Below are positions 1 through 36,402 of a stretch of DNA of 64,000 nt, piece after piece. This DNA is from Shigella phage SP21535, in sequence record PQ615101; one strand, given 5' to 3'. The number at the start of each line of letters is the position of its first letter. Within the stretch, counting starts at the first letter, position 1. The notes beneath the pieces are model-generated. The model was given only the letters and a program-made list of their open reading frames with translations. It had not been told where the DNA came from and made no database searches. The position numbers and the translations under genes were made by a program.

Positions 1-167
1 TTATTGCGTATCTTTTTAATATAATCACCGGAACCTATATACTTGTCATTTTCTAAATCAAAATATCTAGATTCATGTTTACCAATATAAACACGTACTA
101 ATCCTTTCGGATTAGTAACGGTTGTTTTATATATGTATCTAAATTGAACAGTGTTAGATTTTTTCAT
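1..167 (-). CDS. GIY-YIG (seg-like) homing endonuclease, N-terminal part only; gene continues past window start
   Basis: Minus-strand ATG at 165-167 behind GAGGTG; translation MKKSNTVQFRYIYKTTVTNPKGLVRVYIGKHE..YIGSGDY resembles segB N-terminus. Confidence 0.55.
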   Translation of the reverse strand, partial: MKKSNTVQFRYIYKTTVTNPKGLVRVYIGKHESRYFDLENDKYIGSGDYIKKIRN

Positions 168-185
168 AATTCACCTCTGAATTAT

Positions 186-1916
186 TTATAAACCTACGTC
201 TATACGGCTACCATCAATTGTGTATTGACCAGATGAAATAGAACTCATAGATGCCATTTTTTCTGTCCAATCACCACCAACGTCCCAATCAACTGTCCCA
301 GCAACTTTCCAAGAAAGATTTCCATTTACTGTATTAGTCTGGTTTCCTTCAACTAAAGTGGTAGCATCCCCTTTAACTGTAATGTCAGCATTACCTTCAA
401 CTACAATAGTAACATTACCTTTAACTAGGATAGTTCCATTACCTTCAACTGTCTTAGTTTCATCGCCACGTACAAATATTGTATTGCTTCCATCTATTTG
501 GTGGAGACGATTATCCATGTTGTAATAAATTTCTGACCCACCGACGTTAGTCTTTTTATCGCCAGCTACCAAAAAATTACCATCAGCATTTGTTATATCA
601 TACAAATTATCAACAGTTTTTCTTGTTCTTCTTCCTGACGGTGATACTTCCTCATATGTTCCAGTCGGATGAACTAATCTGTATCGTTCTTGTCCCGGGG
701 TATCGTCAAATTCCTGAATATGACCGCTTTCAGTTTCCATTGTGTGAACATACGGATATTCACCTTTATATGAAGAAACAGGTTCTTTAAATAAAATTCT
801 CGAATCATTCGGAATAGGAGGGTCAGCTGGATCAGAAGACTTTGCTACAGCAGCAGCCATTGCTGACAAAGACCTAGCCGGTGTTTTCACTTCAATACCG
901 TATGATTCCAAATTACCGGTAAGAATAATCATGGTAACACGGGATGCACGGCCTTTTGTTTGTTGATACCACAATGAATCACGACCAGCTTTATATGCTT
1001 TTTCCCAATCTCCGGCTAACATAGCAGTTAACATTGTGTTAAATTTAGCTACACCGCCAACACCCATTTGGAATGCCATATTTTCTAATGCCATTTGACG
1101 AGAACGATTAACTGCCTGCCAAACTGGGCCAACTTTAGAATGTGATTTAATGTCACGTTGCATATCAGCTAAATCACGTTCAAATAAAGTTACCGCTTCT
1201 TCCATTGTAATAGAACCTGGATTTCCGGTAATTTCACGACCAACTTGTTTTGATAAAACTTTATTAATTTGGGCCATATCACGAACTGGCTGCTTCATGA
1301 TAAGATGACCAATACCAATTGTCGGATATCCTTCGGTATCCCAATAAACTTTTAGTCTTAATCCTTCATCGCGGCGAAGCATTTCAGCCATTGACATATT
1401 TGGATTATCATCAGTTGGAATCTCTGATAGTGGTCTATCATCAGGATTTATCGCAGTGTCTAAATTACTATCTTGGATAATATTAGAAGACGAATCATAT
1501 CCTACTTCTCCGCCTTGGTTTAATACGTTAGTATCATTTCCTAGACGTCTAGGATACTGTCCAGTCGGGTCAGAAAATCCTTCAAGTCTATTAGGCTTTT
1601 CGCGAACTATTCCACCATACGTGCCAAGGACAATTCCGTTAGTTTTCCATTTGTCTAAAAAATGACCATAAACTCTAGTTCCTTCTACCGGTCCAGTAAC
1701 AGAACCTCCAATTCCAGACATTGCTGCAGAAGTTATAGGTTGAATAACTGACATCCATGGTAATTTATCAGTTGGAATACCCATTACATCGCCTTGCGCT
1801 CTTTGAGGTGGATGCAGACCAACCACACGAACACGAACACGACCTAATTTTAATGGGTCCATTCTATCTTCAACAACACCAACAAACCAGTTGAGGTTAT
1901 TACTTATCATTTCCAT
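186..1916 (-). CDS. 5: baseplate hub / tail-associated lysozyme gp5
   Basis: 576 aa; internal T4-lysozyme-like domain (MAEMLRRDEGLRLKVYWDTEGYPTIGIGHL) and C-terminal VxGxxxxxV beta-helix repeats. Confidence 0.93.
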   Translation of the reverse strand: MEMISNNLNWFVGVVEDRMDPLKLGRVRVRVVGLHPPQRAQGDVMGIPTDKLPWMSVIQPITSAAMSGIGGSVTGPVEGTRVYGHFLDKWKTNGIVLGTYGGIVREKPNRLEGFSDPTGQYPRRLGNDTNVLNQGGEVGYDSSSNIIQDSNLDTAINPDDRPLSEIPTDDNPNMSMAEMLRRDEGLRLKVYWDTEGYPTIGIGHLIMKQPVRDMAQINKVLSKQVGREITGNPGSITMEEAVTLFERDLADMQRDIKSHSKVGPVWQAVNRSRQMALENMAFQMGVGGVAKFNTMLTAMLAGDWEKAYKAGRDSLWYQQTKGRASRVTMIILTGNLESYGIEVKTPARSLSAMAAAVAKSSDPADPPIPNDSRILFKEPVSSYKGEYPYVHTMETESGHIQEFDDTPGQERYRLVHPTGTYEEVSPSGRRTRKTVDNLYDITNADGNFLVAGDKKTNVGGSEIYYNMDNRLHQIDGSNTIFVRGDETKTVEGNGTILVKGNVTIVVEGNADITVKGDATTLVEGNQTNTVNGNLSWKVAGTVDWDVGGDWTEKMASMSSISSGQYTIDGSRIDVGL

Positions 1917-2490
1917 AAGATTTCTCCATTATACGTATAAGGTCGTTCATAAATGAATTAATGTCTGATTTTGCTATTATTTTTATTTGACGAAGTTTTT
2001 CATTTTCAAGAACAGCAGCTTCATACGTATCAACAGCAGCAAGTGCTCCTTCATATTGAGGATATTTTCTAGCTTTATCGCCTTTATCATACCAAACATA
2101 TGGATTATCATCGTATGATATTAAATTATAAAATTTTTCACCATTCTCATTCACGTGATATACTATTTGGTCTCCACCTACGTTTTTGTATTTTTGTATA
2201 GATGCTTGATAAGCAGCTTCTTGCGAAGTAATCCATCCATAATACGGATCATAATTATCATTACACATCAATAAAACCCAATACAACTGTGGATTTCCAT
2301 ATATAGCATTTGCTAATTCTTCCGGGCGTGGTGAACCTTTAATATAATAAGTACGTAAGCGGTATCCCGCAAGAGCGCGTTTGAAATAGTCTTTATAGTT
2401 TCTAAAAATATCTGTCATAGGAATAGTCGGCGCGTTTTTATTCACCGTTTTGGCCGCATATTCAATCGGATCAAAAAATGTAAAGAGCAT
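1900..2490 (-). CDS. 53: baseplate wedge protein gp53
   Basis: 196 aa (T4 gp53 is 196 aa), directly upstream of gene 5 on the same strand, late promoter in front. Confidence 0.8.
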   Translation of the reverse strand: MLFTFFDPIEYAAKTVNKNAPTIPMTDIFRNYKDYFKRALAGYRLRTYYIKGSPRPEELANAIYGNPQLYWVLLMCNDNYDPYYGWITSQEAAYQASIQKYKNVGGDQIVYHVNENGEKFYNLISYDDNPYVWYDKGDKARKYPQYEGALAAVDTYEAAVLENEKLRQIKIIAKSDINSFMNDLIRIMEKSYGNDK

Positions 2491-4500: not shown

Positions 4501-5213
4501 ATGAAACTAATCTTTTTAAGTGGTGTAAAGCGTAGTGGAAAAGATACTACTGCAGATTTTATTATGAATAATTATTCTGCAGTTAAATATCAACTTGCTG
4601 GTCCTATTAAGGATGCATTGGCTTATGCATGGGGTGTATTTGCAGCAAACACTGGCTATCCTTGTTTAACTCGTAAAGAGTTTGAAGGAATTGACTATGA
4701 TCGTGAAACTAATTTAAATCTGACTAAATTAGAAGTAATTACGATTATGGAACAAGCATTTTGCTATCTTAATAGTAAAAGCCCAATTAAAGATGTGTTT
4801 GTTTTTGATGACGCAGTTAATTTCGTAGCATTTAACAAGATTGCTGACGTTATAAATAATATTGAAGATCAATGGTCAGTCCGTCGTCTGATGCAAGCCC
4901 TAGGTACGGATTTGATTGTTAATAACTTCGACCGCATGTATTGGGTAAAATTATTTGCTTTAGATTATCTTGATAAATTTAACTCAGGTTATGATTATTA
5001 TATCGTTCCTGATACTCGTCAAGATCATGAAATGGATGCGGCTAGGGCGATGGGTGCTACAGTAATTCATGTAGTTCGTCCTGGTCAAAAATCCAATGAT
5101 ACACATATTACAGAAGCTGGATTGCCAATTCGTGATGGCGATTTAGTAATTACAAACGACGGTTCTCTTGAAGAACTTTTTTCTAAAATTAAAAATACAC
5201 TAAAGGTACTATA

Positions 5214-5214
<1 letters not shown>
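4501..5214 (+). CDS. 1: deoxynucleoside monophosphate kinase gp1
   Basis: 237 aa; position before 57A; T4 gp1 is 241 aa. Confidence 0.85.
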
Positions 5215-5911
<697 letters not shown>

Positions 5912-7916: not shown

Positions 7917-8582
7917 ATGTTCCATTACACTTATAAAATAACAAATAAAATTAATAATAAAATTTATATTGGTGTGCATTCTACCGAAAATTTAGATGAT
8001 GGATATATGGGTTCTGGTAAATTATTAAAAAGAGCCCAAGACAAGTATGGTATAGAAAATTTCTCTAAAGAAATATTAGAGTATTTTGATGATAAAGAAT
8101 CTATGCTTGAAGCCGAGAAAAATATTGTCACAGAAGAGTTTTTAAATAGACCAGATGTGTATAATTTAAAACTTGGCGGTGAAGGTGGATGGGACCATAT
8201 AAATATTCCTGGGATGCTAAACCAGAAGAAAGATGCTAGCTTAAAAGGAGCTAAATCGTTTAAATCACGTTTTGAAAATGATATTTTACTTCAAGAAAAA
8301 TATCGTAAAATTGGTTCAAATGTATTTAAACGTTTGTGGTCAACTCCTGAATACAAGGAAAAATTTTTAAATAATAGCAGATTTTTAAATAAGCATCATA
8401 CTCCTGAAACTATTAATAAAATGAAAGAAATTCACGCTAAAAATAATCACCAGAAAGGAGAAAAGAATTCCCAATTTGGTATGATGTGGATTCATTCATT
8501 AGATGAAAAAGTTTCTAAACGTATTAAGAAAACTGACCCAATTCCAGAAGGATGGTTTAAAGGTCGAAAAATGAAATTTTAA
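7917..8582 (+). CDS. segB: GIY-YIG homing endonuclease SegB
   Basis: 221 aa inside the tRNA cluster as in T4; YKITNKINNKIYIGVHSTENLDDGYMGSG GIY-YIG motif. Confidence 0.85.
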   Translation: MFHYTYKITNKINNKIYIGVHSTENLDDGYMGSGKLLKRAQDKYGIENFSKEILEYFDDKESMLEAEKNIVTEEFLNRPDVYNLKLGGEGGWDHINIPGMLNQKKDASLKGAKSFKSRFENDILLQEKYRKIGSNVFKRLWSTPEYKEKFLNNSRFLNKHHTPETINKMKEIHAKNNHQKGEKNSQFGMMWIHSLDEKVSKRIKKTDPIPEGWFKGRKMKF

Positions 8583-31665: not shown

Positions 31666-32139
31666 ATGTTATTGACTGGCAAATTATACAAAGAAGAAAA
31701 ACAGAAATTTTATGATGCACAAAACGGTAAATGCTTAATTTGCCAACGAGAACTAAATCCTGATGTTCAAGCTAATCACCTTGACCATGACCATGAATTA
31801 AATGGACCAAAAGCAGGAAAGGTACGTGGATTGCTCTGTAATCTCTGTAATGCAGCAGAAGGTCAAATGAAGCATAAATTCAATCGTTCTGGCTTAAAGG
31901 GACAAGGTGTTGATTATCTTGAATGGTTAGAAAATTTACTTACTTATTTAAAATCCGATTACACCCAAAATAATATTCACCCTAACTTTGTTGGAGATAA
32001 ATCAAAGGAATTTTCTCGTTTAGGAAAAGAGGAAATGATGGCTGAGATGCTTCAAAGAGGATTTGAATATAATGAATCTGACACTAAAACACAATTAATA
32101 GCTTCATTTAAGAAGCAGCTTAGAAAGAGTTTAAAATGA
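31666..32139 (+). CDS. 49: endonuclease VII (Holliday junction resolvase)
   Basis: 157 aa; matches T4 EndoVII as I recall it, including zinc-binding CLICQ..CNLC. Confidence 0.9.
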   Translation: MLLTGKLYKEEKQKFYDAQNGKCLICQRELNPDVQANHLDHDHELNGPKAGKVRGLLCNLCNAAEGQMKHKFNRSGLKGQGVDYLEWLENLLTYLKSDYTQNNIHPNFVGDKSKEFSRLGKEEMMAEMLQRGFEYNESDTKTQLIASFKKQLRKSLK

Positions 32140-32673
32140 CGATTGAAAAAGAAATTGAAGGATTAATTCATAAAACTAATAAAGACCTTTTAAACGAGAA
32201 TGCTAATAAAGATTCTCGTGTTTTTCCAACTCAACGGGACCTTATGGCTGGTATTGTGTCTAAACATATTGCCAAAAATATGGTCCCGTCTTTTATTATG
32301 AAAGCGCATGAAAGCGGAATTATTCACGTGCACGATATTGATTATTCCCCTGCTCTTCCATTTACTAATTGCTGTTTAGTAGATTTAAAAGGAATGCTTG
32401 AGAATGGATTTAAGCTCGGTAATGCACAGATTGAAACTCCTAAATCAATCGGTGTTGCTACTGCAATTATGGCACAAATTACTGCGCAGGTTGCTTCTCA
32501 TCAATATGGCGGAACGACTTTTGCGAATGTAGATAAAGTACTTTCTCCTTATGTTAAACGCACCTACGCAAAACATATTGAGGATGCGGAAAAATGGCAA
32601 ATCGCTGATGCATTGAATTATGCTCAATCTAAAACAGAAAAAGACGTATACGATGCATTCCAGGCGTATGAGT
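32136..32673 (+). CDS. nrdD: anaerobic ribonucleotide reductase NrdD, exon 1
   Basis: ORF 32136..32681; 5-prime splice site placed after U32673 by a 6-bp P1 pairing of exon AUGAGU with GCUCAU in the intron. Confidence 0.75.
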
Positions 32674-33706
32674 TAATTTAATTCAGGCTCATGTAAAACC
32701 GGTCTAAACGGGGAACCTCTCTAGTAGACAATCCCGTGCTAAATGTTCTTTTGAACTAAATGCCTAACGACTAACCGTGATGAATGTAGCGGTGTAGAAT
32801 AGAAGCTAATGCTATTCGAAACGGCCGGCATCGAAAGATGAAGATATAGTCTAATCTGCATGGCGACATGCAGCAGTCATCTTGTATAAATAAGATTATC
32901 TTATGAATACGAGGTGAAACAATGAAATGGATAAAAAGACGTTGTACTAAAATAAAAGATAAAGACGCATTTACATACTTAGTTAAGTTTTCTAATGGCG
33001 ACATTTATATCGGTTATAAAAAATTTAGAACAATTAAAAACAAGCCCACAAACTGGAAAACTTACACAACGTCATCTAAGTATATAAATGAACGCTTAAA
33101 AACTGATACACCTACTAAATGGATAATTTTAAAAACATTTGATAGTTATAAAGATGCATTAAAACATGAAGAAGAGGTCATACGTAAATATTTTTATAGC
33201 AAAAAATGTTTAAATAAATCCATAGGCGGTAAAAAGTTTTATAAGCATCCGGATACTGAAGAACATATTCAAAAATTAAGAGATGCTCATAAGGGTAAAG
33301 TGTTATCCGAATCTCATAAAAACAATATAAAATCTTCTGTAGCTGAATATTATGCTAAAAACGGAAGATCTAAGGAACATGTGCAAAATAATATCAATAG
33401 TCGAAAAAGTAAAAAACAAGTATCGATAAAGCTTAAAAATAAAACTTTTAGAAGTTTTAAAAAAGCAGCGGAATATTTAAATTGCACTGAAAGTGAAGTC
33501 GAAACTCATCCTCTTGTTTTGAGTATTAAGACTACTATTCATAAAGTTCCTGAATATGTGGTTGTTGACGGTATTAAGTATACGTCTTATATAGAAGCAG
33601 CTAAAGCGCTAAATTTTCATCCTAGCACTATAAAAGAACGTTGCATATCTATGGACTATCCAAATTTTGTTGTTTCATATAAACGGGCATGAATTTGCGA
33701 CTCATG
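32674..33706 (+). mobile_element. group I intron in nrdD (T4 nrdD/sunY-type) carrying I-TevII
   Basis: Starts UAAUU like the T4 td intron; core CUAAACGGGGAACCUCUCUAGUAGACAAUCCCGUGCUAAAU; inferred length 1033 nt equals the T4 nrdD intron. Confidence 0.75.
32922..33692 (+). CDS. I-TevII: intron-encoded GIY-YIG homing endonuclease I-TevII
   Basis: 256 aa ORF inside the intron; FTYLVKFSNGDIYIGYKK motif. Confidence 0.8.
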   Translation: MKWIKRRCTKIKDKDAFTYLVKFSNGDIYIGYKKFRTIKNKPTNWKTYTTSSKYINERLKTDTPTKWIILKTFDSYKDALKHEEEVIRKYFYSKKCLNKSIGGKKFYKHPDTEEHIQKLRDAHKGKVLSESHKNNIKSSVAEYYAKNGRSKEHVQNNINSRKSKKQVSIKLKNKTFRSFKKAAEYLNCTESEVETHPLVLSIKTTIHKVPEYVVVDGIKYTSYIEAAKALNFHPSTIKERCISMDYPNFVVSYKRA

Positions 33707-34998
33707 CTGAATATAATGATGAAGTAAATACACTTTTCAGCTCTAATGGACAAACGCCTTTTGTAACAATTACATTTGGTACGGGAACTGACTGGACTGA
33801 ACGAATGATTCAGAAAGCAATTCTGAAAAATCGTATTAAAGGTCTTGGTCGTGATGGGATAACTCCTATTTTCCCTAAGCTTGTTATGTTCGTTGAAGAA
33901 GGTGTTAATCTTTATAAAGACGATCCGAACTATGATATTAAGCAGCTTGCTCTAGAGTGCGCAAGCAAAAGAATGTATCCTGATATTATTTCAGCTAAGA
34001 ACAATAAAGCTATCACTGGTTCATCTGTTCCTGTTTCTCCGATGGGATGCCGTAGTTTCTTGAGCGTATGGAAAGATTCGACTGGCAATGAAATTCTTGA
34101 TGGACGTAATAATCTTGGTGTTGTAACATTGAATCTTCCTCGCATCGCGTTAGATTCTTATATTGGAACACAGTTCAATGAACAGAAATTTGTTGAATTG
34201 TTCAATGAGCGAATGGATTTATGTTTTGAAGCTTTGATGTGTAGAATTAGTTCCTTAAAAGGAGTTAAAGCGACTGTTGCTCCTATTCTTTACCAAGAAG
34301 GTGCATTCGGGGTTCGTCTTAAACCTGATGACGATATAATTGAGTTATTTAAAAACGGCAGAAGTTCAGTGTCTTTGGGATACATTGGTATTCACGAATT
34401 AAATATTCTTGTCGGTCGTGATATTGGACAAGAAATTTTAACTAAAATGAATGCTCATCTTAAACAGTGGACTGAAAGAACCGGATTTGCTTTTAGTTTA
34501 TATTCGACTCCTGCTGAAAACCTTTGTTACCGCTTCTGTAAACTTGATACAGAAAAATATGGAAGTGTAAAAGATGTTACCGATAAAGGCTGGTACACTA
34601 ATAGTTTCCATGTTTCAGTAGAAGAAAATATTACTCCGTTTGAAAAGATTTCTCGTGAAGCGCCATATCATTTCATTGCGACAGGTGGTCACATTTCTTA
34701 TGTTGAACTTCCTGATATGAAAAATAACTTAAAAGGCCTTGAGGCCGTGTGGGATTATGCTGCACAACATTTAGATTATTTTGGTGTTAATATGCCAGTA
34801 GATAAATGTTTTACATGCGGAAGCACCCATGAAATGACTCCTACTGAAAACGGATTTGTTTGTTCTATTTGTGGAGAAACTGATCCTAAAAAGATGAATA
34901 CAATAAGAAGAACATGCGGATATCTTGGAACTCCTAGCGTTGTTCCATGGAATTTAGGTAAAATGAAAGAAATGGTAAAACGAGTAAAACATGCATAG
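33707..34998 (+). CDS. nrdD: anaerobic ribonucleotide reductase NrdD, exon 2
   Basis: 3-prime splice after G33706, exon 2 begins CUGAA (P10 pairing); C-terminal glycyl radical motif RRTCGYLG; combined product about 609 aa. Confidence 0.75.
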
Positions 34999-35821
34999 GT
35001 ATTATATAATTTATAAAATAACAAATATAATTAATTCAAAGGAATATATCGGTGCGCATAGCACCGATAACATAAATGACGGTTATATGGGGTCAGGAAC
35101 ATTGATTCGTGCCGCTTTATTAAAATATGGTAGAAAAAATTTTAATAAAGAAATTTTACATGTTTTTGATAATGAAAAACAAATGTATGATAAAGAAGCT
35201 GAACTTGTAACCGAAGAGTATTGTCTAAAAGAAAATACATATAATATTAAACCTGGTGGAAAAGGTGGAACTGCCTATGAACAGACACTTGAACATCGCC
35301 GCAAAAATAGTTTAGCAAATAAAGGTAAAAAGAGAACAGAAGAAACTAAAATAGCTATTTCACGTGCTTTAAAGAAATATAAACGTACGCCAGAGCATCA
35401 AGCAAATTTAAATAAAGCCGTAAGCATAGCTATGAAGCGAAAAGATGTTAGAAGTAAATTAGCTGGAGAGCGGTCTGAGAAAGATAAATTATCTATATCA
35501 AACGGTGTTAAAAAATATTACAATTCTTTGAGTGAAGAAGAACGCGAACTTCATCGCAAGCGAATTATTGAAGGTAAAAAGAATTCTCCCATGTCATTGG
35601 AATCTAGACAAAAGCTTTCAAAAGCTTTAAAAGGACTTCAAGTTGGTTCAAAAAATCCAATGTATGGAAAAATTTCTCCAACTAGCAAAACCGTTTCAGT
35701 TGACGGTATTAAATATGATTCAATTAAAAAGTGCTCAAATGCCATAAAAGTTTCTAGACATCTTATACTAAAACGCTGTAATTCTACTGATGAAGCTTGG
35801 AAAAATTGGATATTATTATGA
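34991..35821 (+). CDS. free-standing GIY-YIG homing endonuclease, SegB paralogue
   Basis: 276 aa; N-terminus YKITNIINSKEYIGAHSTDNINDGYMGSG closely parallels segB; NUMOD-like repeats; sits between nrdD and nrdG. Confidence 0.75.
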   Translation: MHRYYIIYKITNIINSKEYIGAHSTDNINDGYMGSGTLIRAALLKYGRKNFNKEILHVFDNEKQMYDKEAELVTEEYCLKENTYNIKPGGKGGTAYEQTLEHRRKNSLANKGKKRTEETKIAISRALKKYKRTPEHQANLNKAVSIAMKRKDVRSKLAGERSEKDKLSISNGVKKYYNSLSEEERELHRKRIIEGKKNSPMSLESRQKLSKALKGLQVGSKNPMYGKISPTSKTVSVDGIKYDSIKKCSNAIKVSRHLILKRCNSTDEAWKNWILL

Positions 35822-36288
35822 ATTATGACAGAATATATCCGTGCTGCTTTGTTAATGGTCCTGGATGCAGGACAGTTCTTTTCGTTACAGGTTGTTTGCA
35901 TAAATGCGAAGGGTGTTATAATAAATCAACATGGAATGCTAGAAATGGCGTTCCATTTACTGGTGAAACACTAGAACAATTAATTGAATGTTTGAATAAT
36001 GATTATATAGAAGGATTAACTATAACTGGAGGTGACCCTCTTTATCCTGATAACCGAGATGATGTTCATTGCATTGTTCAAACTGTAAAAAATCTTTATC
36101 CAAATAAAAGCATTTGGTTGTGGACAGGGTACAAGTTTGAAGATATTAAACAACTAGAAATGCTTAAATATGTTGATGTTATTATTGATGGGAAGTATGA
36201 GAAAAATCTTCCAACCAAAAAGCTGTGGCGAGGTTCAGATAATCAGCGACTTTGGTCAAATACCGATGGGGTGTGGAAACATGATTAA
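35818..36288 (+). CDS. nrdG: anaerobic RNR activating enzyme NrdG
   Basis: Radical-SAM cysteine cluster CRTVLFVTGCLHKCEGC; ATG 35818 overlaps upstream stop (ATGA); 156 aa. Confidence 0.85.
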   Translation: MNYDRIYPCCFVNGPGCRTVLFVTGCLHKCEGCYNKSTWNARNGVPFTGETLEQLIECLNNDYIEGLTITGGDPLYPDNRDDVHCIVQTVKNLYPNKSIWLWTGYKFEDIKQLEMLKYVDVIIDGKYEKNLPTKKLWRGSDNQRLWSNTDGVWKHD

Positions 36289-36402
36289 ACTGAATTATAT
36301 TATTGATACTATAAATGATATGATTTTTCATTTTGGTCCAGAATTTTATTCGCAGTATAGTTTAGTACTTATCAATGCTTGGTTAATCAATTAAGGGTAA
36401 AT

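What the first reader, a model, noticed from the sequence alone, without database searches (positions are those of the whole stretch)
34991..35821. Second SegB-like GIY-YIG endonuclease between nrdD and nrdG, where T4 carries mobE
The 276-aa ORF has an N-terminal domain closely similar to segB in this window (YKITNIINSKEYIGAHSTDNINDGYMGSG against YKITNKINNKIYIGVHSTENLDDGYMGSG) followed by NUMOD-like repeats. As I recall, T4 has the HNH-type mobE at this position, so a different endonuclease family occupies the same inter-gene slot, consistent with competing homing elements. Its ATG overlaps the nrdD stop region and its stop overlaps the nrdG start.
Basis: partly seen in the sequence, partly recalled or inferred. 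Interest (0 to 1): 0.5.

Follow-up and report, generated by a model that had tools for sequence, protein, structure and literature searches.

The report
Known SegH homing endonuclease gene

Summary
The ORF at 34991-35821 (+) is real. It overlaps the nrdD stop by 8 nt and the nrdG start by ATGA. Its first 90 residues are 53% identical to the SegB encoded in this window (E=4e-31). Its product is 100% identical to SegH of phage RB3 (GenBank ABI48949.1), which sits in the same nrdD/nrdG slot with the same overlaps. SegH was named and described as a homing endonuclease by Sandegren, Nord and Sjoberg (NAR 2005). Seventy-two phage records carry the gene at 90% identity or more.

T4 holds the HNH gene mobC here; mobE lies between nrdA and nrdB.

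Comparative work here gives a typical homing footprint:
- The slot is empty in roughly 577 related records. It holds segH in 72, T4-type mobC in 32 and a second MobC-like HNH gene in 32.
- The block 34900-35837 differs by 0-1 base from RB3 and CE1, while the flanking nrdD and nrdG differ by 3-8%.
- The block includes a heavily recoded last 77 nt of nrdD, which also occurs in a few mobC phages.

Novelty: already known. Interest: low.

The parts
34991..35821 (+). segH ORF (276 aa plus stop), a free-standing GIY-YIG homing endonuclease gene
   Evidence: ORF list and sequence. 100% aa identity to RB3 SegH ABI48949.1. 72 phage records at 90% nt identity or more, annotated segH or homing endonuclease, all between nrdD and nrdG. 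phrog_314 'homing endonuclease', E=2.4e-60.
34991..35260 (+). N-terminal GIY-YIG catalytic domain (aa 1-90; IIY at 6-8, YIG at 19-21, Glu69/71, Asn85)
   Evidence: 53% identity to window SegB over 90 aa. TIGR01453 group I intron endonuclease, E=3.3e-13, 50.2 bits, below the 56.05 cut-off. A profile alignment to I-TevI 1LN0/1MK0 pairs Y8/Y19/G21/N85 with I-TevI Y6/Y17/G19/N90. Foldseek top hits are 1LN0 and 1MK0, prob 1.00, TMt 0.62-0.64.
35285..35674 (+). Linker with NUMOD3-type repeats (aa 99-228); the copy at aa 200-228 is the significant one
   Evidence: Pfam NUMOD3 at 200-228, 33.8 bits against a cut-off of 20.4. Pattern matches at aa 99, 133 and 202. Helical and of low confidence in the model.
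35666..35809 (+). C-terminal I-TevI-like helix-turn-helix DNA-binding domain (aa 226-273)
   Evidence: Pfam I-TevI_DNA-bd, E=3e-4, 21.1 bits, below the cut-off of 27. pLDDT 77-86 for aa 231-276. Foldseek hit 1I3J, the I-TevI DNA-binding domain, prob 0.99. Alignable with the C-terminus of the intron ORF, VDGIKY...RC.
34914..34990 (+). Recoded 3' end of nrdD, inherited together with segH (NrdD ends ...CGYLGTPSVVPWNLGKMKEMVKRVKHA*)
   Evidence: Identity to T2/CM8/PST/T4 drops from about 48/50 to 35/50 here. There are 12 synonymous and 11 non-synonymous codon changes in the last 29 codons. The tract is found in 80 records, the 72 segH records plus a few mobC hybrids. The next-best NrdD C-terminus is only 74% identical in aa. 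It shows 0 mismatches to RB3 and CE1.
34991..34998 (+). 8-nt overlap of the segH start with the nrdD end (ATGCATAG); no promoter or good Shine-Dalgarno of its own
   Evidence: Sequence. Same overlap in AY262138.2. No TATAAATA and no sigma-70-like site upstream.
35818..35821 (+). ATGA overlap of the segH stop with the nrdG start
   Evidence: Sequence. nrdG reads MNYDRIYPCCFVNGPG... from 35818.
35818..36288 (+). nrdG (anaerobic RNR activase). Its first ~57 nt are a variant allele shared with phages carrying the PST-type HNH gene
   Evidence: 40/50 identity to T2/CM8 but 49/50 to PST in the first 50 nt. This variant is found in only 35 records.
32136..34998 (+). nrdD, interrupted by a ~1.05-kb intervening sequence (about 32663-33718) that carries an I-TevII-like ORF (32922..33692)
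   Evidence: ORFs. Gap relative to the intron-less T2 nrdD. T4 annotation of nrdD as a two-piece join with I-TevII inside. The intron ORF is 56% identical to T4 I-TevII.

Best explanation
This is segH, a free-standing GIY-YIG homing endonuclease gene of T-even-type phages. It has an I-TevI-like architecture: an N-terminal GIY-YIG nuclease domain, a flexible linker with NUMOD3 repeats, and a C-terminal helix-turn-helix DNA-binding domain.

The gene has no promoter of its own. It is read from the nrdD-nrdG transcript and is probably translated at a low level by re-initiation at the 8-nt overlap with the nrdD stop (inferred).

When a segH phage and a relative lacking segH infect the same cell, SegH makes a double-strand break close to the nrdD/nrdG junction of the other genome. 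Recombination-dependent repair then copies segH, plus a short stretch of its flanks, from the segH genome. The gene therefore spreads faster than its host genome (established for Seg endonucleases, reported for SegH; the footprint is seen here).

In T4 the same slot holds the unrelated HNH gene mobC.
For: Shown here:
- 100% protein identity to RB3 SegH, with the same position and overlaps.
- 72 records carry the gene at this slot.
- The slot is polymorphic. It is empty in about 577 records (single-piece junction hits, nrdD stop overlapping nrdG ATG). It holds T4-type mobC in 32 records and a PST-type MobC-like HNH gene in 32.
- The block 34900-35837 has 0-1 mismatch to RB3 and CE1. Over the six full-length comparisons (RB3, CE1, T6, HY03, Pu-Krd-SF6, TH58), nrdD upstream differs at 30-67 of 1100 positions and nrdG at 16-36 of 467 (22 of 391 for RB3).
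- The ORF is intact in all seven copies checked, with 0-6 aa changes.
- GIY-YIG and I-TevI-like domains are supported by sequence and fold.

From the literature:
- The title of Sandegren et al. 2005 (PMID 16257983) calls SegH a homing endonuclease whose gene replaces mobC.
- bioRxiv 10.1101/2022.08.31.505936 states that T4 MobC lies between nrdD and nrdG and is replaced by segH in related genomes.

From my memory of the 2005 abstract (not readable here): SegH cleaved DNA near its locus and homed in mixed infections.
Against: - Nothing here measures cleavage or homing.
- The primary paper could not be opened, so the cleavage site is not known to me.
- The Pfam GIY-YIG model PF01541 does not hit SegH. 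The SegE_GIY-YIG and TIGR01453 hits are below their curated cut-offs.
- The equivalent of the catalytic Arg27 of I-TevI is not identifiable in the alignment.
- The structure model has low mean confidence (pLDDT 61).
- As I recall the 2005 abstract, SegH also cuts segH-containing DNA in vitro. That argues against simple target-site immunity from the recoded nrdD tail.
Confidence: 0.93

Rival explanations
1. SegH is kept mainly because it benefits the phage, not only because it is selfish. By cutting co-infecting relatives it would exclude their markers around the anaerobic RNR genes. Alternatively, like SegB in a 2026 report, its breaks could drive local amplification or rearrangement that helps the phage.
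For: The ORF is intact and nearly invariant in seven copies from different backgrounds, including two Mosigvirus records. PMC13096335 reports that SegB promotes amplification of anti-defence loci (abstract). The recalled 2005 abstract discusses a selective advantage of cutting both kinds of genome.
Against: Only about 10% of related records carry segH. No defence or anti-defence gene is evident next to it; the neighbours are nrdD and nrdG. Near-identity across backgrounds is equally expected from recent selfish spread.
Confidence: 0.2
2. In this particular genome the gene is an inactive relic: it keeps its reading frame but no longer acts.
For: Many phage homing endonuclease genes decay after fixation, for example I-TevIII in T4 (PMC2790892). 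There is no own promoter or clear ribosome-binding site.
Against: The protein is identical, residue for residue, to the RB3 SegH deposited with the 2005 study that described SegH as a homing endonuclease. There is no stop or frameshift. The motif residues are present.
Confidence: 0.04
3. The ORF is a new SegB paralogue that arose by duplication within this genome, rather than a laterally acquired cassette.
For: 53% identity with SegB over the first 90 residues.
Against: The similarity stops at residue ~93 and the C-terminal two-thirds are unrelated. The same gene, at 99% identity or more, sits at the same site in dozens of phages whose flanks differ by 3-8%. The slot is empty in most relatives.
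Confidence: 0.02

Closest known systems
SegH of phages RB3, T6 and LZ2 (GenBank AY262138.2, AY262137.2, AY262139.2; Sandegren, Nord and Sjoberg, Nucleic Acids Res 2005, PMID 16257983)
   Same: Protein 100% identical to RB3 SegH. Same slot between nrdD and nrdG, same 8-nt and 4-nt overlaps, and the same recoded nrdD tail.
   Different: Nothing in the gene itself. The genome around it is a different mosaic. This window has the nrdD intron, which RB3 lacks, and an nrdG 5' allele that differs from RB3's at 22 of 391 positions.
SegB of T4-type phages (GIY-YIG, tRNA gene region; also encoded in this window at 7917..8582)
   Same: N-terminal catalytic domain 53% identical. Both are free-standing Seg-type genes.
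   Different: The C-terminal DNA-binding parts are unrelated, so target and locus differ. SegB reaches the Pfam GIY-YIG threshold and SegH does not.
I-TevI (td intron endonuclease of T4; structures 1LN0, 1MK0, 1I3J)
   Same: Two-domain plan: a GIY-YIG nuclease, a long linker and a C-terminal HTH. These are the best structural matches for both ends of the SegH model. The GIY, YIG and Asn positions align.
   Different: About 25% identity. SegH is free-standing rather than intron-encoded. Its linker has NUMOD3 repeats instead of the I-TevI zinc finger; no Cys cluster is visible in the SegH linker.
MobC of T4 (HNH, T4p075) and the MobC-like HNH gene of Yersinia phage PST
   Same: They occupy the same nrdD/nrdG slot.
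   Different: Different nuclease family (Pfam HNH PF01844, phrog_655) with no significant similarity to SegH. They are also inserted differently. Both mob ORFs begin with nrdG's own first 7-13 codons and are followed by a second copy of the nrdG start. segH begins inside the nrdD end.
MobE of T4
   Same: A free-standing HNH gene between two ribonucleotide reductase genes.
   Different: It lies between nrdA and nrdB (aerobic RNR), not between nrdD and nrdG (Table 1 of PMC2988022).

Membership tests
SegH (named gene of T-even-type phages) | Sequence identity to the reference SegH protein | tested here: met
   276/276 identical to ABI48949.1 of RB3; 831/831 nt identical to PP01, EC121 and F2.
SegH (named gene of T-even-type phages) | Located between nrdD and nrdG, in the place of T4 mobC | tested here: met
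   the overlaps are the same as in AY262138.2.
SegH (named gene of T-even-type phages) | Site-specific cleavage near its own locus, and homing in mixed infection | not testable with these tools
   Reported in PMID 16257983 (title seen; abstract recalled from memory). The paper is not held.
GIY-YIG nuclease superfamily | GIY and YIG motifs on the first two strands | tested here: met
   IIY (6-8) and YIG (19-21) lie on predicted strands 5-12 and 18-24. They align with I-TevI Y6 and Y17-G19.
GIY-YIG nuclease superfamily | Catalytic Arg, Glu and Asn (I-TevI R27, E75, N90) | tested here: inconclusive
   N85 aligns with N90. E75 aligns with A70, which is flanked by E69 and E71; E69 is invariant among SegH, SegB and the intron ORF. 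No residue aligns with R27.
GIY-YIG nuclease superfamily | Score above the curated cut-off of a family model | tested here: not met
   No PF01541 hit. PF19835 scores 18.6 against 25 and TIGR01453 scores 50.2 against 56.05, although its E-value is 3.3e-13. Membership instead rests on 53% identity to SegB, which does pass PF01541, and on fold.
GIY-YIG nuclease superfamily | GIY-YIG alpha/beta fold | tested here: met
   The top three Foldseek PDB hits are I-TevI catalytic domain chains (1LN0_B, 1MK0, 1LN0_A), prob 1.00, TMt 0.62-0.64, E=6e-3 to 1.3e-2. The model was built from a 3-sequence alignment, with pLDDT 52-85 in this domain.
NUMOD3 / I-TevI-type DNA-binding modules | NUMOD3 motif above the Pfam cut-off; C-terminal HTH like I-TevI | tested here: met
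   NUMOD3 scores 33.8 against 20.4. The I-TevI_DNA-bd model is below its cut-off (21.1 against 27), but the fold hit to 1I3J has prob 0.99 and the domain has pLDDT of about 80.
Free-standing homing endonuclease gene (mobile cassette) | Presence/absence polymorphism at one precise site among close relatives | tested here: met
   Empty junctions in T2 and CM8, and in about 577 records by junction search. segH is present in 72 records.
Free-standing homing endonuclease gene (mobile cassette) | Cassette much less diverged than its flanks (recent lateral spread with short co-conversion tracts) | tested here: met
   0-2 mismatches in 831 nt against RB3, CE1, Pu-Krd-SF6 and TH58, compared with 3-8% divergence in the flanks. 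A crossover lies inside the nrdD tail in Pu-Krd-SF6.
Mob (HNH) endonucleases: MobC / MobE | HNH motif and similarity to Mob proteins | tested here: not met
   No HNH hit for SegH. BLASTP against T4 MobC gives a best E of 0.55, and against PST MobC-like 0.13.

The most novel reading that the evidence does not exclude
The recoded last 60-77 nt of nrdD may be a separable protection patch against SegH rather than passive baggage.

It is always linked to segH. It has no close counterpart in any other sequenced NrdD. It also turns up in about eight records that carry mobC instead of segH; the one examined, SHFML-11, has it joined at a shared 10-mer, CATGCATAGG. The nrdD/nrdG junction would then record serial invasions by three endonuclease genes, with resistance alleles able to spread without the endonuclease.

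This may already be discussed in the 2005 paper, which I could not read.
Probability: 0.2. Interest if true: 0.3.

Novelty: already known. Interest (0 to 1): 0.1.

Why it matters
It matters little as a discovery. The gene, its family, its position and its replacement of T4 mobC were published in 2005 and are annotated in dozens of genomes.

Its use is as a clean worked example. One phage locus shows three unrelated or distantly related endonuclease genes competing for a 15-nt slot. The sequence footprints are sharp: a near-identical cassette sits in flanks diverged by 3-8%. The report also corrects the mobE/mobC confusion.

Tried and rejected
- Reading the primary paper by PMC id and by DOI: not held. 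Five citing papers were searched for details of the SegH cleavage site, and in most of them segH appears only in the reference list.
- phmmer of SegH against PDB sequences: no meaningful hit. A three-sequence profile gave only weak I-TevI hits (E=0.4-0.6), used solely for residue correspondence.
- Rfam scan of 32400-36400 at gathering thresholds: nothing, not even the nrdD group I intron.
- Search for a T4 late promoter (TATAAATA) or a sigma-70-like promoter in front of segH: none. The nearest late-promoter match, at 32885, belongs to the intron ORF.
- RNA fold of the segH start region: a stable 9-bp hairpin at 35047-35069, but it does not cover the start codon and the overall z-score is only -1.97. 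No regulatory claim is made.
- MAFFT placed a 16-nt gap in the nrdD tail. A codon-wise alignment shows that the two NrdD ends have equal length with no indel. I therefore do not claim an insertion. The shared CATGCATAGG, and the SHFML-11 hybrid joined there, remain unexplained in detail.
- Search for a donor lineage of the recoded NrdD tail by tblastn: none. The next best is 74% aa identity.
- Rejected: an origin of segH by duplication of segB within this genome. See the rival explanations.

Full report
**1. Observation**

The ORF list gives 34991..35821 (+), ATG start, 276 aa. The raw sequence shows nrdD ending ...AAA CAT GCA TAG at 34998, with the ORF's ATG at 34991, an 8-nt overlap. The ORF's TGA at 35819-35821 overlaps the nrdG ATG at 35818 as ATGA.

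Both quoted peptides are present, at 35012 and at 7932. The second lies in a 221-aa SegB-like ORF at 7917..8582. BLASTP between the two proteins gives 48/90 identities, E=4e-31, confined to the first ~93 residues.

Pfam finds one NUMOD3 motif above threshold (aa 200-228). It also gives sub-threshold hits to the I-TevI DNA-binding domain and to SegE_GIY-YIG.

**2. Identity**

Megablast of the ORF against 50,697 phage records finds 72 records. Seventy of them cover at least 80% of the ORF, and 54 are at 99% identity or more. The hits checked lie between nrdD and nrdG and are annotated 'segH', 'SegH' or 'homing endonuclease'.

GenBank AY262138.2 (phage RB3) annotates nrdD 1..1505, segH 1498..2328 and nrdG 2325.., which are the same overlaps as here. 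Its SegH protein ABI48949.1 is 276/276 identical to the window's product.

[quoted passage not shown] The paper is not in the held library. [quoted passage not shown]

**3. What T4 has**

In NC_000866 the gene between nrdD and nrdG is mobC (T4p075, 211 aa, HNH family). The T4 endonuclease table in PMC2988022 lists mobC at nrdG/nrdD and mobE at nrdB/nrdA.

SegH and MobC share no significant similarity. MobC hits Pfam HNH and SegH does not.

**4. Protein anatomy**

*N-terminal domain (aa 1-90).*
- IIY (6-8) and YIG (19-21) lie on two predicted strands.
- A profile alignment pairs them with I-TevI Y6 and Y17-G19, and pairs N85 with N90.
- I-TevI E75 falls on A70, between E69 and E71.
- No counterpart of R27 is evident.

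*Family models.*
- TIGR01453 'group I intron endonuclease' matches with E=3.3e-13, but at 50.2 bits it is below its 56.05 cut-off.
- PHROG 314 'homing endonuclease' matches at 2.4e-60.

*Fold.* An AlphaFold2 model from a three-sequence alignment is only moderately confident: mean pLDDT 61, the two terminal domains 52-86, the linker below 50. Even so, the four best Foldseek hits in the PDB are the I-TevI catalytic domain (1LN0_B, 1MK0 and 1LN0_A; prob 1.00, TMt 0.62-0.64) and the I-TevI DNA-binding domain (1I3J; prob 0.99).

*Linker.* The linker (aa ~99-228) holds one significant and several degenerate NUMOD3 repeats.

SegH therefore works like I-TevI and the Seg proteins: a sequence-tolerant GIY-YIG nuclease tethered to a C-terminal DNA-binding module. 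That last step follows from established knowledge of I-TevI and is not shown here.

**5. Expression context**

There is no T4 late-promoter box and no sigma-70-like site ahead of segH. The nearest TATAAATA, at 32885, precedes the intron ORF. With the 8-nt overlap, this fits the 'promoter-less cassette, translationally coupled' class described for several T4 free-standing endonucleases in PMC2988022. This is an inference.

**6. Slot occupancy**

A junction query (the last 501 nt of nrdD joined to nrdG) matches 842 records, 687 of them over at least 80% of the query.
- The 577 records in the 90-95% identity band are single-piece hits of 965-968 nt in every sampled row. These are empty slots in which the nrdD stop overlaps the nrdG ATG, as in T2 and CM8.
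- segH is in 72 records.
- T4-type mobC is in 32.
- A third occupant is in 32 records, ten of them Klebsiella phages at 86% identity. It is a 279-aa MobC-like HNH gene (phrog_655), annotated 'mobC' in Yersinia phage PST.

These counts include RefSeq/GenBank duplicates and partial records.

**7. Homing footprint**

*Against RB3.* The window has 40 mismatches in nrdD 33800-34899 and 22 in 391 nt of nrdG. Between 34900 and 35837 (938 nt) it has only one.

*Against other segH phages.* The same pattern holds for CE1 (0 in the cassette), Pu-Krd-SF6 (1) and the Mosigvirus record TH58 (2). T6 and HY03 carry somewhat older copies, with 8 and 20 differences. All copies are intact, with 0-6 amino-acid changes.

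*Recoded nrdD tail.* The near-identical block includes the last 77 nt of nrdD.
- Compared with T2, CM8, PST and T4, identity is 46-50 matches per 50 nt up to 34899 and then falls to 34-35 per 50.
- Codon by codon, the last 29 codons carry 12 synonymous and 11 non-synonymous changes, with no length change.
- The divergence starts just after the glycyl-radical motif RRTCGY.
- The tail occurs in 80 records, that is the segH records plus about eight others.
- No other sequenced NrdD comes closer than 74% in this segment.
- In Pu-Krd-SF6 the first 13 nt of the tail are T2-like, so a crossover lies between 34926 and 34931.

A cassette that travels with a short, strongly diverged piece of its target gene is what double-strand-break repair with co-conversion produces. 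The tail may also reduce self-cleavage. As I recall the 2005 abstract, however, SegH cuts segH-bearing DNA as well, so I rate the immunity idea as unproven.

**8. Other junction details**

- T4 MobC begins MNYDRIY and the PST HNH protein begins MNYDRFYPCDFVN. These are nrdG's own first codons, and a second, variant nrdG start follows each mob gene. The mob elements therefore sit inside the 5' end of nrdG, whereas segH sits in the 3' end of nrdD.
- The window's nrdG 5' allele (PCCFVNGPGCRT) is the PST-type variant: 49/50 identity to PST against 40/50 to T2. It is present in only 35 records.
- Shigella phage SHFML-11 joins the segH-type nrdD tail to a remnant of the ordinary nrdD end, and then to T4-type mobC, at a shared CATGCATAGG.

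These hybrids point to repeated replacement among the occupants. I did not resolve the order of events.

**9. Verdict**

The feature is real and correctly classed as a Seg-type GIY-YIG endonuclease gene occupying a slot that T4 fills with an HNH gene. It is the already characterised segH, and the T4 gene is mobC, not mobE.

The comparative footprints found here agree with the published homing function and add only detail. Novelty: already known. Interest: about 0.1.

Noticed in passing
window 32922-33692 (+), inside the nrdD intervening sequence at about 32663-33718: The nrdD intron ORF is only 56% identical (144/257) to T4 I-TevII, so it is a divergent I-TevII-type GIY-YIG endonuclease. HY03 and CE1 annotate an ORF of the same length at the same offset. 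A TATAAATA late-promoter box sits at 32885-32892, just upstream. Rfam did not detect the group I intron at gathering threshold.
   Followed up: partly
L006 (Shigella phage SHFML-11) 1501-1640; compare window 34914-34999: Hybrid junction: the segH-type recoded nrdD tail is followed by a remnant of the ordinary nrdD end (GGGTTAAACACCA) and then T4-type mobC. The two parts are joined at a 10-mer (CATGCATAGG) shared by both alleles. About 8 of the 80 records with the recoded tail lack segH.
   Followed up: partly
L004 (Yersinia phage PST) 1998-2837: A third occupant of the nrdD/nrdG slot: a 279-aa MobC-like HNH gene (phrog_655) annotated 'mobC', with no megablast match to T4 mobC. It is found in 32 records, including Klebsiella phages at 86% identity. 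Its ORF starts with nrdG's first 13 codons.
   Followed up: partly
L001 (T4) 4907-5539 (-) compared with window 35818-35840: T4 MobC begins MNYDRIY, identical to the N-terminus of NrdG. mobC is therefore inserted inside the 5' end of nrdG and uses its start codon, and a duplicated nrdG start follows the gene.
   Followed up: partly
L007 (Escherichia phage FL18, Mosigvirus) 1409-2077: At this locus FL18 has no nrdD body. A 223-aa Seg-like ORF directly after gene 49 is fused in frame to the last ~22 codons of the recoded nrdD tail, and segH and nrdG follow. The Seg-like gene normally sits between gene 49 and nrdD in about 50 phages, for example Pu-Krd-SF6. It is absent from this window, where gene 49 overlaps nrdD directly.
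   Followed up: partly
window 35047-35069: A perfect 9-bp inverted repeat with a 5-nt loop (TATCGGTGC GCATA GCACCGATA) lies inside segH, over the codons for YIGAHSTD. It forms the dominant hairpin in the predicted mRNA fold but does not cover the start codon. It could be chance: roughly 1-2 such repeats are expected per 64 kb.
   Followed up: partly
window 35822-35878: The first ~57 nt of nrdG are a minority allele (NrdG PCCFVNGPGCRT). It is shared with PST-type HNH phages and some segH phages, but not with RB3-type segH phages or with empty-slot phages. No record matches it 100%.
   Followed up: partly
window 22000-46000: The window is not identical to any record in the phage collection. The best match over these 24 kb is phage CE1 (97% coverage, 96.9% identity), so this is a Tequatrovirus mosaic not represented there.
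   Followed up: no
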